This document shows positions 727-3,700 of a stretch of DNA of 64,000 nucleotides, piece by piece; positions within the stretch are counted from its first letter, which is position 1, and every line of letters starts with the position of its first letter. Made by a program: the position numbers. The stretch lies in assembly GCF_057098645.1 (NCBI RefSeq), contig NZ_CM169472.1. One strand, 5' to 3'.

Positions 727-3700
727 TCAGGAACTTGTTCGCACCTTCCCTAAAGCAAACATGCCGTAGACAATAATTGCGCTTAGCCAATGGAAGGCCG
801 CAGATATAACACCATAGCGTTCAGGGGTATTTGTGAATGACATAAGTGCATCCAAAACGAATTTGCGAGAGAAAGAAAATGGCGTGTCGGAGAATGAATT
901 GCAACACAAAAATAACAAATTGAATGATATTTATTTTTATTTCAATAATTTTGAATTAATAATGAAAGAATCTTCATAAGTTTAGTGGGTTCAGCATCAG
1001 AGATGTCTGGTGAGTGCTGTAGAAGCAGGAATAATCTCATTCAATTTTTCACGCTAAATGAAAGGGAGATTAAATATTTGTCAGTTTATGTCAGTGCGGA
1101 AAACTAAAAATAAAACACATAGTTCAGATCCATAATTGCCAACAATCCCCAGAGAAAAAGATAAAGCATCAGATGCTCGCGAATATTATTGATGAGATAG
1201 TGCAACAGCCGACGCATTAAATACTCCTGTAAAAACGGCCTCATTCTGGAGGCCGTAATGATGATTATTGGAAGCGGGAAAGCCTGAATGAGGTCAAATC
1301 AAAATCGCTTTTTTTGTTTTGCGCAAAATCGGCAGCTATTTCCCCTAAAACTGACGCAAATTTAAAACCGTGCCCACTCAGGCCGGTAATGAGCAGTGTA
1401 TTATCGTGGTCGGGTAGGGTATCGATAATAAAATCTTCGTCAGGCGAATTATCATAGGTGCAGGCAGCGCCGTACAGGCAGCAACCGATACCCGGCAATA
1501 CATTGCGCAAGAACGGGAAGGCTTCTGACCCATCACTGGCCACTTCCGCAAACGGAACACGTTCATCCGCTGAATGGATAACCTGGCCTCCGTTATGTTT
1601 GCCAATCTTCAACGCGTCGTTTTCTGCCGGAAAACCATAATATTGATCGCCATTGGGCAGTTCACCGGTAAACGCCGGGAATTTATTCTTCACGCTATAG
1701 CGGCCATCGGCCTGATACCAGGCAAATACTTTACGTACGGGCTGGACAGGCAGCTCCGGGAGCAGGTCTTTTACCCATGTTCCCGCGCAGACAATCGCTT
1801 TTTTCGCCTGATACTCACCGTCAGCCGTTTCAATAGTTACACCATCATCGTCATGACGAATTGCGGTGACCGGGCAGTTGAACAGTTGCGCACAGCCCGC
1901 TTCCTTCGCCAGTTGGATCCAGGTTTTAATCGCCAGTTCGCTGCGCAAAAAACCGGAATCAGTCTCAAATAAGCCGATGTAGTTGTCCGGGACGCGTATT
2001 TCTGGCCAGCGGGCCATAATCCCTTGCGCATCGAGCTTTTCAACGTTGAGTTGCCACTGTTCGGCGCTGTGGGCGACGTTGGCGAGAAATGCGGAGTCAG
2101 CCGGGCCGAGGTTAATGACACCAGAGCGTACAAAAATGGGATCATCTTCGTTGTGGCGGGAGAGCTCATCCCACAGTGTTTGCGCGCGGAGGACCAGTGG
2201 GACATACTTTTCGCCTTCACCATAAGCATGGCGAATTAATCGCGTATCGCCGTGGTGGCTGCCGTGTTGATGCGGTGGCATATGGGCGTCGGTCATTAGC
2301 ACGTTTAAACCGGCGCGGGTTGCATAATACCCGGCGGCAGCGCCTACGGAACCGCTGCCAATAATGATGAGATCGTATTTCATTTTTTTCTCTCTGCTCT
2401 CATGGTTTAAGCAGAGTAATTAACTGAATGCAGATATACAACCCAGAAATGGTAAAGGCACCGGTGAGGTGCCTTTTGGGTGGATGGTCATGTCATGTTA
2501 ATGACGCCGATACTCGTTTACCTGGAAATCACCGGATTCAATTTTGGCGATTCCTGCTTCTAATATCGAAATAAATTGTCTGGCAACATCAGTGGTTAAC
2601 CAGAGCGTCTGACCAACTTCAGTCCCTTCCTGCTCGGACTTATTTGGGGTCTGGTAGTGCAAACGCAACATCAGCGCATCATAGCTATCAACGGTGCTGA
2701 TGTCCCACCCTACGAGCGGATGAGTCTGAATGACTTCATTATTTTTTTCCATCATGGCCCCCTAATTCGTGTTACTAGACAACGTTATTCGAGGTTCAAT
2801 GCGTTTTTATCTGAAGCAACTTCAGTATACCAATAAGTAAGGGTATTCACCGAATTTTTAAAGGGGGAAATAGATAAATTTCTGCTTTTAAGATTTATAT
2901 GAACAATAAAACAGCATCTCATTCATATTTTTTTAGCATATTGTGCAATTATTTTGAGGAAGTGTAGAAATTTTGTACTCAAAATTCGTAAGTAAAATAA
3001 AAAAGCCGGGGCGACCCGGCAAAAACAAAAATCACTGCATATTATTCGCTGACAAACCAGTCATCGGCGCTTTCCCACGTTTCCTGGAGAATTTCGCTAA
3101 TGCGCTGTTTATCTTCTTTTGTCGCGCCAATAACCGATAAATTATTCGCTGCGGCGTAACGTACCGATACGTGGCCTTCATTATCAGGAAACGCATACTG
3201 AATACGGCGGGAAAGTTCGCCAGCCAGGGCGTCAATAGCCCCAGCTGGCAATGGAGAAGTTTTCGCTATGGTGACTTCAATTCGCATAATAGCCCCCTGT
3301 TGAATATACTGGTTATTTATACAGGTAAAATAATCTAATGACAACAGGAAGCTACGATTTTTATTGTTTAACGGACCAGCGTACCGTTTCCCCGGCGAGG
3401 AATGGCACCAGCGTGTCATCAGTCAGTGCGATGCTTTCAGCAACCTGATGCTCTTCACGTACCAGTTCGATGAATGTGTCGTTGACCGGCAACCCATAGA
3501 ACTGCGGGCCATTTACAGAACAGAATGCTTCAAAGTGCTGCAGAGCATTCATCTCTTCAAAGACGGTAGCGTAACTTCCCAGCGCGGTTGGGGCGTTGAA
3601 GCAGCCCGCGCAGCCGCAACTGCTCTCTTTGCGATGACGTGCATGTGGCGCAGAATCCGTACCGAGGAATACTCGATTAAAACCGCTGGCGACCAGTTCA

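What the first reader, a model, noticed from the sequence alone, without database searches (positions are those of the whole stretch)
750..1103. AT-rich 354-bp spacer between the IS5 end and yceO with no convincing ORF
This segment is strongly AT-rich and contains runs such as TTATTTTTATTTCAATAATTTTGAATTAATAATG. The only ORF-track hit (727..918, minus) starts inside the IS5 terminal repeat and is probably spurious. The region is most likely the former upstream or regulatory DNA of the gene the IS5 landed next to. It could also carry outward-reading promoter activity created by the IS5 end.
Basis: seen in the sequence. Interest (0 to 1): 0.25.

Follow-up and report, generated by a model that had tools for sequence, protein, structure and literature searches.

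The report
IS5-split yceJ gene and its promoter
The AT-rich stretch is ordinary, conserved E. coli DNA: the promoter region and first 31 codons of the cytochrome-b561 gene yceJ, which an IS5-type mobile element has cut in two.

Summary
Window 750-1103 is 35% GC, in the lowest 0.5% of windows, and lies between an IS5-family end (749) and the yceO stop codon (1104).

The stretch is 100% identical to uninterrupted K-12 DNA and is present in 5424 of 5426 complete E. coli genomes.
- Bases 843->750 (minus strand) are the first 31 codons of yceJ, a cytochrome b561 family gene. The element landed inside yceJ at a CTAA, not next to a gene.
- The "spurious" ORF 727..918 contains the real yceJ start (ATG 843) fused to 6 codons from the IS end (Gly32 is rebuilt at the junction).
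- Only 844-1103 (260 bp) is intergenic. It holds the yceJ-yceI promoter, with a transcription start mapped in K-12 at window 868/869, and sequence blocks conserved across about 50 enterobacterial species.

No RNA family, conserved RNA structure or conserved small ORF was found. No outward IS-created promoter is supported, and the next + strand gene is 6.6 kb away.

The relevant direction is inward. The yceJ promoter reads into the co-oriented transposase gene, as at nmpC::IS5 in K-12.

Side finding: the same CTAA was hit independently in three other genomes.

Verdict: ordinary and already explained; low interest.

The parts
1..749 (-). Partial IS5-family element (ISKpn26 type). The window starts inside it. 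The transposase ins5A runs 681->1 (227 codons in the window).
   Evidence: NCBIfam NF033581 IS5 family transposase, E 1.9e-83; translation. All 749 bases are identical to the element annotated 'IS5-like element ISKpn26 family transposase' in strain EPSSH018.
730..749 (-). Left terminal inverted repeat (IRL) of the IS. The weak ins5A promoter PIS overlaps and extends beyond it: -35 GTGCGA at 744-739 and -10 GATCAT at 721-716.
   Evidence: Sequence read. The promoter elements are those named for IS5 in PMC11894529.
750..753 (.). CTAA target site: one copy of the 4-bp target-site duplication. The other copy lies left of the window.
   Evidence: Junction alignment. CTAA flanks both ends of the 1195-1196 bp element at the same site in L003, L004 and L087.
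750..843 (-). 5' remnant of yceJ: codons 1-31 plus one base.
   Evidence: 32/32 residues identical to K-12 YceJ. RefSeq annotates yceJ here in intact genomes. Full-length YceJ matches PF01292 at 4.7e-30.
727..843 (-). Chimeric ORF yceJ'-IS, 38 aa (MSFTNTPERYGVISAAFHWLSAIIVYGMFALGKVRTSS*). Its stop codon lies inside the IRL.
   Evidence: Translation.
844..1103 (-). Native yceO-yceJ intergenic region (260 bp, 31.9% GC).
   Evidence: 100% identical to MG1655. Single copy in 5424 of 5426 E. coli genomes. Nothing is annotated here in NC_000913.3.
868..869 (-). yceJ-yceI transcription start site, mapped in K-12 (NC_000913.2 positions 1118294/1118295).
   Evidence: Kim 2012 supplement. Cho 2014 supplement: transcription unit yceJ;yceI, detected in stationary phase, assigned to sigma70. 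Conversion: window coordinate = NC_000913.2 coordinate minus 1,117,426.
876..904 (-). Core yceJ promoter: TTGCAA (904-899), 14-nt spacer, CGCCATTT (884-877).
   Evidence: Invariant or near-invariant columns across 20 species from about a dozen genera. Found at a fixed -59 to -62 from the ATG in 38 of 78 loci.
940..955 (-). Conserved block TTCAAAATTATTGAAA in the most AT-rich core.
   Evidence: Alignment A2: columns T157-A160 and T167-A169 are invariant or nearly so. Function not established.
1079..1093 (-). Tandem direct repeat TGACA-N5-TGACA with a 10-bp period, just downstream of yceO.
   Evidence: Both TGAC cores are invariant in all 20 aligned species. The pattern occurs in most of the Enterobacteriaceae loci (43 of the first 47) and in several Pantoea loci, against about 0.005 expected per locus. 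It lies inside the sigma70 ChIP region, window 1014-1325.
1104..1244 (-). yceO (DUF2770 small protein). It bounds the region on the right.

Best explanation
Window 750-1103 is not an anonymous spacer. It is the upstream part of the yceJ-yceI operon, cut off from the rest of the operon by a recent, strain-specific insertion of a roughly 1.2-kb IS5-family (ISKpn26-type) element into a CTAA at yceJ codons 31/32.

Shown:
- 843->750 is the yceJ 5' coding remnant.
- 844-1103 is the native yceO-yceJ intergenic region.
- That region carries the conserved yceJ promoter, with the start site at 868/869 as mapped in K-12, and further conserved upstream blocks.

Inferred consequences:
- yceJ is inactivated. 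Only a 38-aa chimeric peptide can be made.
- The transposase gene has the same orientation as yceJ and begins 162 nt downstream of the yceJ ATG. Transcripts from the yceJ promoter, and read-through from solA-yceO, should therefore run into ins5A.
- Those transcripts may continue through the element into the yceJ 3' part and yceI.
- This is the arrangement shown experimentally for nmpC::IS5, where host-promoter read-through drives transposase expression and transposition.
For: - Identity to the uninterrupted reference from base 749/750 onward; the junction reads ...CCTTCC|CTAA.
- yceJ is annotated across the homologous position in intact genomes.
- 32/32 identity to the YceJ N-terminus; full-length YceJ matches PF01292.
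- IS5-family transposase.
- The same element with a CTAA duplication at the same site is annotated as a split 'cytochrome b' pseudogene in EPSSH018.
- The closest relatives, O145:H28 strains that are 100% identical over 11,251 bp, have an intact yceJ.
- Start site and transcription unit yceJ;yceI.
- Promoter motif conserved at a fixed distance in 38 loci.
- solA-yceO transcripts extend into yceJ, and no terminator-like site is found.
- Precedents for inward transcription into and through IS5.
Against: - The left junction, the second CTAA copy and the yceJ 3'/yceI part lie outside the window. For this strain the full structure is inferred from the three homologous alleles.
- The start site was mapped in K-12, not in this strain.
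- Read-through into the transposase gene and its effect on transposition or on yceI expression are untested here.
- The sigma factor is unsettled. The sequence looks sigma32-like, but Cho 2014 found only sigma70 binding and a stationary-phase start site.
Confidence: 0.92

Rival explanations
1. The 354 bp are non-coding former upstream DNA of a gene the IS landed beside, the only ORF is spurious, and the IS end may create an outward-reading promoter.
For: - The right-hand 260 bp are intergenic and regulatory.
- A + strand ORF inside the IS (478..753) reads out through this end.
- One + strand promoter-like match exists at 920-949, but it lies in native DNA.
Against: - 94 bp are yceJ coding sequence.
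- No promoter-like site spans the junction, and the count of promoter-like sites (1) is below the shuffle expectation of 1.9.
- There is no + strand gene for 6.6 kb.
- The end present is the IRL, whose known promoter reads inward.
Confidence: 0.05
2. The AT-rich intergenic part hides an unannotated gene, either a small protein (for example ORF 942..1040 minus, 32 aa) or a small or leader RNA.
For: - Several 25-48 aa ORFs exist.
- The roughly 260-bp spacer length is conserved across genera.
- A sigma70 ChIP region covers the distal part.
Against: - The 32-aa ORF is detectable by tblastn only in another Escherichia and not in other genera.
- No Pfam hits for any of the small ORFs.
- No Rfam match better than E 0.8.
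- RNAalifold predicts 0 conserved pairs across 20 species.
- Folding z-scores are -1.64 and -0.38.
- The curated K-12 annotation has nothing here.
- The only mapped start site leaves a 25-nt leader.
Confidence: 0.04
3. The conserved tandem TGACA-N5-TGACA (1093-1079) is a binding site for an OmpR/PhoB-type response regulator, most plausibly CpxR. It would control yceJ-yceI from a distance, rather than being the -35 element of a second sigma70 promoter.
For: - 10-bp direct-repeat geometry; invariant in 20 species.
- In most genera the reverse complement is GTCAA-N5-GTCAA. GTCAA is an accepted CpxR half-site variant.
- The P. aeruginosa yceJ homolog PA3575 is a direct CpxR target with such sites.
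- E. coli yceJ-yceI respond to CpxR.
Against: - In E. coli the half-sites are GTCAG, only 3 of 5 matches to GTAAA.
- The site is about 215 bp upstream of the mapped start.
- In most genera the motif equals the sigma70 -35 consensus TTGACA, with a TAnnnT-like hexamer 16 bp downstream.
- It lies within a sigma70 ChIP region.
- No binding data exist.
Confidence: 0.3
4. The recurrence of IS5-type insertions at this CTAA reflects selection for loss of yceJ/yceI function rather than a target-site preference.
For: - Four independent alleles in both orientations.
- An unrelated IS1-linked deletion removes the yceJ 5' half and promoter in strain 102651.
Against: - All four IS5-type hits are at exactly the same base, although yceJ contains other YTAR sites.
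- Selection for loss of function would be expected to scatter insertions and to include other mutation types.
- No phenotype is known that favours loss.
Confidence: 0.15

Closest known systems
yceJ::ISKpn26 pseudogene allele of E. coli EPSSH018 (NZ_CP125889.1)
   Same: Same CTAA, same orientation, and an identical IS sequence over the 749 bases that can be compared. RefSeq annotates two 'cytochrome b' pseudogene halves flanking the transposase.
   Different: The flanking chromosome differs at 32 of 2800 positions, so this is a different lineage and most likely an independent event.
nmpC::IS5 of E. coli K-12 (Onstead et al. 2024, PMC11677980)
   Same: An IS5 nested inside a host gene and co-oriented with it. 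The host promoter lies upstream of the IRL and reads into ins5A. In K-12 this read-through makes that copy the main source of transposition.
   Different: The host gene and promoter differ: yceJ, stress or stationary-phase regulated, with its promoter 119 nt from the IS end. The element is ISKpn26-type rather than K-12 IS5. Read-through is not measured here.
IS5 fusion promoter at fucAO (Zhou et al. 2025, PMC11894529)
   Same: The same IRL end, with the weak PIS (-35 GTGCGA, -10 GATCAT) both present here at 744-739 and 721-716. In that system host DNA upstream of the IRL determines activity and transcripts traverse the whole IS to downstream genes.
   Different: At fucAO a Crp site at -61.5 activates PIS. 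Here the equivalent position is yceJ coding DNA with no known activator site. The nearest promoter is a separate complete promoter about 160 bp upstream, so read-through is more likely than fusion.
Native yceJ-yceI promoter region of E. coli K-12
   Same: 260 of 260 bases are identical. The mapped start site and the transcription unit yceJ;yceI apply.
   Different: In the window the promoter is separated from codons 32-188 of yceJ and from yceI by the IS.

Membership tests
IS5-family insertion (IS5/ISKpn26 group) | DDE transposase of the IS5 family | tested here: met
   NF033581 at 1.9e-83 and 280 bits against a cut-off of 140, for the 227 residues present in the window.
IS5-family insertion (IS5/ISKpn26 group) | Terminal inverted repeat GGAAGGTGCGAA(C/T)AAG at the element end | tested here: met
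   The reverse complement sits at 734-749. The matching opposite end is seen in L003.
IS5-family insertion (IS5/ISKpn26 group) | 4-bp duplication of a YTAR target (CTAA/CTAG) | tested here: inconclusive
   One CTAA abuts the IS at 750-753 and the uninterrupted reference has a single CTAA there. The second copy lies outside the window. It is present in the three homologous alleles.
Prokaryotic cytochrome b561 (PF01292), YceJ | Sequence membership of the protein encoded from ATG 843 | tested here: met
   The remnant is 32/32 identical to K-12 YceJ. Full-length YceJ hits PF01292 at 4.7e-30. The 38-aa remnant alone gives no hit because it is too short.
Sigma32 (heat-shock) promoter | -35 TTGAAA-like and -10 CCCCATnT-like elements with a 13-15 nt spacer (consensus recalled from Cowing 1985 and Nonaka 2006, not held in the library) | tested here: met
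   TTGCAA (5/6), N14, CGCCATTT (6/7), ending 8 nt before the mapped start. Conserved in 38 of 78 loci at a fixed position. A loose form of the pattern is expected about 3 times per 64 kb by chance, so the weight comes from conservation and position, not from the match itself.
Sigma32 (heat-shock) promoter | Sigma32 occupancy or a heat-induced start site | tested here: not met
   Cho 2014 lists only an RNAP region and a sigma70 region here, with no SigH region. The start site was detected only in stationary phase. Heat-shock induction of yceJ is stated in PMC10607373, but no promoter evidence was seen. I therefore do not file it as a sigma32 promoter.
CpxR box | GTAAA-N5-GTAAA direct repeat upstream of a Cpx-responsive gene | tested here: inconclusive
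   The window has GTCAG-N5-GTCAG (3/5 + 3/5). Other genera have GTCAA-N5-GTCAA (4/5 + 4/5) with the correct spacing. yceJ-yceI are Cpx-responsive.
Structured RNA (sRNA, riboswitch or leader) | Match to a known RNA family, or a conserved structure with covariation | tested here: not met
   No credible Rfam hit. RNAalifold predicts 0 pairs. Folding z-scores are not significant.
IS-created outward or hybrid promoter | -35 in the IS end, -10 in flanking DNA, and a downstream gene in the same orientation | tested here: not met
   No promoter-like site at the junction. The nearest + strand gene starts at 7362.
Repeated intergenic element (REP/ERIC-like) | Multiple copies per genome | tested here: not met
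   Median of 1 place per genome, maximum 2.

The most novel reading that the evidence does not exclude
The CTAA at yceJ codons 31/32, just downstream of a very AT-rich promoter region, is a true preferred landing site for IS5/ISKpn26. Co-oriented copies like this one would then come under the stress or stationary-phase yceJ promoter. They would act as host-regulated 'master copies', as nmpC::IS5 does in K-12, while read-through across the element keeps yceI expressed.
Probability: 0.2. Interest if true: 0.4.

Novelty: already known. Interest (0 to 1): 0.12.

Why it matters
- It corrects the annotation. This strain carries a yceJ pseudogene, not a spacer of unknown nature, and the ORF dismissed as spurious is the real gene start.
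- yceJ-yceI is an envelope-stress and aerobiosis-responsive operon. The strain may therefore differ slightly in that response.
- The orientation places a host promoter upstream of the transposase gene. In K-12 that arrangement determines which IS5 copy is active, so this copy could matter for genome instability in the strain.
- None of this is surprising to a specialist.

Tried and rejected
- Rfam scan of 1-3000 at E<=1: only two chance eukaryotic matches.
- RNA folding of both strands of 844-1103: not more stable than shuffles.
- Consensus structure over 20 species: none.
- Small ORFs 942..1040(-), 833..979(+) and 985..1107(+): no Pfam hits. The first is not conserved outside Escherichia.
- Promoter and terminator scan of 650-1350: nothing at the IS junction and no terminator after yceO.
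- Sigma32 assignment: not backed by the Cho 2014 ChIP data. The Salmonella RpoH supplement had no yceJ entry.
- The Cappable-seq supplement held no coordinates for this region.
- Two papers, requested under PMC ids recalled from memory for Thomason 2015 and Nonaka 2006, are not held in the library.
- My first sigma32 regular expression used the wrong spacer range and missed the site. It was corrected.
- My first transposase frame was off by one base. The ATG is at 681.

Full report
**1. The observation.**
- The window begins inside an IS5-family element. Its transposase reads on the minus strand from ATG 681 to the window start.
- The terminal inverted repeat occupies 730-749.
- yceO (DUF2770) lies at 1104-1244 on the minus strand, followed by solA, bssS and the rest of the locus.
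- The 354 bases in between are 35.0% GC, against 51.7% for the window. Only 0.5% of equal-sized windows are as AT-rich. The quoted A/T run is at 931-964.
- The coordinates and composition are therefore correct.

**2. What the DNA is.**
- Megablast of 750-1103 finds the stretch once per genome in 5424 of 5426 complete E. coli genomes, mostly at 99% identity or more. The feature annotated under it is 'yceJ: cytochrome b'.
- Alignment to uninterrupted genomes (MG1655 and strain 503025) is identical from the junction to 1110. On the IS side the reference reads ...CCACAGAC|CTAA, whereas the window reads ...CACCTTCC|CTAA.
- In intact genomes yceJ (567 nt) ends its 5' side 94 bases into the stretch, and yceO abuts the other end.
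- Translating 843->727 gives MSFTNTPERYGVISAAFHWLSAIIVYGMFALG, which is 32/32 identical to YceJ, followed by KVRTSS* read from the IS end.
- Full-length YceJ is a prokaryotic cytochrome b561, PF01292 at 4.7e-30.
- The element therefore sits inside yceJ at codons 31/32. ORF 727..918 contains the true gene start, with only its stop codon in the IS repeat. The genuinely intergenic part is 844-1103 (260 bp, 31.9% GC).

**3. Age and recurrence of the insertion.**
- The best matches to 750-12000 are O145:H28 strains, 100% identical over 11,251 bp, and they have an intact yceJ. The insertion is recent and strain-specific.
- Only one genome in the collection, EPSSH018, has the same junction. Two others, WP9-S17-ESBL-11 and 17-07187, carry an IS5-type element at the same CTAA in the opposite orientation.
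- All three show a CTAA duplication around a 1195-1196 bp element.
- Flank comparison over 2800 bp:

| Pair | Mismatches | IS orientation |
|---|---|---|
| window vs EPSSH018 | 32 | same |
| WP9-S17-ESBL-11 vs 17-07187 | 30 (their IS ends also differ) | same (both opposite to the window) |
| EPSSH018 vs 17-07187 | 6 | opposite |

- The simplest reading is four independent insertions at one tetranucleotide.
- As a rough bound, I took all ~5,500 IS-end copies in the collection as an upper limit on the number of events and assumed ~14,600 CTAA/TTAG sites per genome. That predicts at most 0.38 hits at a given site. Three were seen, giving P<=0.007.
- An unrelated IS1-linked deletion removes the yceJ 5' half and promoter in strain 102651.

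**4. What the intergenic 260 bp contains.**
- *Published K-12 data.* Kim et al. 2012 map a yceJ start site at NC_000913.2 1118294, which is window 868, with a 25-nt leader. Cho et al. 2014 map 1118295, which is window 869. They define the transcription unit yceJ;yceI, detected in stationary phase and assigned to sigma70. Their RNAP ChIP region equals window 689-1039 and their sigma70 region equals window 1014-1325.
- *Read-through from upstream.* SMRT-Cappable-seq finds solA-yceO transcripts that sometimes extend into yceJ. This fits the absence of a terminator-like site after yceO.
- *Synteny.* I fetched yceJ loci from 80 species. The order solA-yceO-(~260 bp)-yceJ is kept across Enterobacteriaceae.
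- *Conserved blocks.* An alignment of 20 species from about a dozen genera shows islands of conservation in otherwise free-drifting sequence:
  - TTGCA(A/T) at 904-899 and GCCATTTT at 883-876. The pair sits at a fixed -59 to -62 from the ATG in 38 of 78 loci.
  - TTCAAAATTATTGAAA at 955-940.
  - TTGAA at 1044-1040.
  - A tandem TGACA-N5-TGACA at 1093-1079 whose TGAC cores are invariant. It recurs in most of the Enterobacteriaceae loci and in several Pantoea loci, against about 0.005 expected per locus.
- *Which sigma factor.* The proximal pair reads like a sigma32 promoter (TTGCAA-N14-CGCCATTT; the consensus is from my own knowledge). yceJ is described as heat-, Cpx- and Lol-stress-induced and aerobically expressed. 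But no sigma32 ChIP signal is reported, so the sigma factor remains open.
- *The distal repeat.* In most genera it equals the sigma70 -35 consensus. In reverse complement it resembles the GTCAA variant of CpxR half-sites, which occur at the Pseudomonas yceJ homolog. Its role is not established.

**5. What it is not.**
- No credible Rfam family.
- No conserved secondary structure and no unusual folding energy.
- No conserved small ORF.
- No annotation in the curated K-12 record.
- Not a repeated element.

**6. How it most likely works now (inference).**
- yceJ is inactivated.
- The promoter is intact and points at the IS. From the start at 868 a transcript would cover the 38-codon chimeric ORF, cross the IRL at 749, and reach the ins5A start codon at 681.
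- The IRL carries the weak ins5A promoter PIS, whose named elements GTGCGA and GATCAT are present at 744-739 and 721-716.
- Two published cases show what such an arrangement does. At nmpC::IS5 the upstream host promoter drives ins5A and sets the transposition rate. At fucAO, transcription starting at the IRL traverses the whole IS5 and expresses downstream genes.
- By analogy, this copy may express its transposase under yceJ-promoter control, and yceI may still be transcribed. Neither has been measured.

**7. The outward-promoter idea.**
- No promoter-like site spans the junction on either strand.
- The only + strand match (920-949) lies in native DNA.
- Everything to the right is on the minus strand until rimJ at 7362, so an outward transcript would only be antisense.

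**8. Verdict.**
- This is an ordinary IS5-family insertional pseudogene of a known gene, plus its native and well-conserved promoter region.
- An essentially identical allele is already annotated in RefSeq.
- Interest is low. The recurrence at one CTAA and the inward-reading host promoter are the only points worth a note.

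Noticed in passing
window 750-753; L003 1952-1955 and 3151-3154; L004 and L087 3017-3020: The same CTAA in yceJ carries an IS5/ISKpn26-type element in three of 5426 complete genomes as well as in the window. Both orientations occur and the flanks are diverged, which fits four independent events. A rough bound gives P<=0.007 for three or more hits at one site.
   Followed up: partly
L085 (E. coli 102651) 2232-3000, equivalent to window ~560-967: An IS1 with an adjacent deletion removes the 5' half of yceJ and its promoter, up to about window 967. This is a second kind of IS-mediated lesion at this locus.
   Followed up: no
window 1079-1093 (minus strand); about -197 to -298 upstream of yceJ in L005-L081: The tandem TGACA-N5-TGACA just after yceO is invariant across enterobacterial genera, including some Pantoea. 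It could be a response-regulator site or the -35 element of a distal promoter. No function is known.
   Followed up: partly
window 478-753 (+ strand): A 91-codon ORF inside the IS reads out through the IRL and takes its stop codon (TAA, 751-753) from the CTAA target site. Any YTAR target would supply a TAA or TAG stop.
   Followed up: no
window 1104-1244: yceO is annotated as 37 aa by PGAP (start equivalent to window 1217) but as 46 aa in the curated K-12 record (start 1244). The window has the longer ORF intact.
   Followed up: no
Kim 2012 ortholog table: In K. pneumoniae MGH78578 the ortholog list jumps from b1055 to b1058, so yceJ-yceI have no ortholog listed at this locus, while yceO and solA do.
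   Followed up: no
window 2756-3100: The bssS-dinI intergenic region is even more AT-rich (27.5% GC for 2801-3000) than the region under study. Such AT-rich promoter spacers are normal in this neighbourhood.
   Followed up: no
E. coli O145 RM9872 (H59): The closest relative has only one match to the 600-1103 query, so it has no copy of this IS end at all. The window's strain therefore probably acquired the ISKpn26-type element recently, for example from a plasmid.
   Followed up: no
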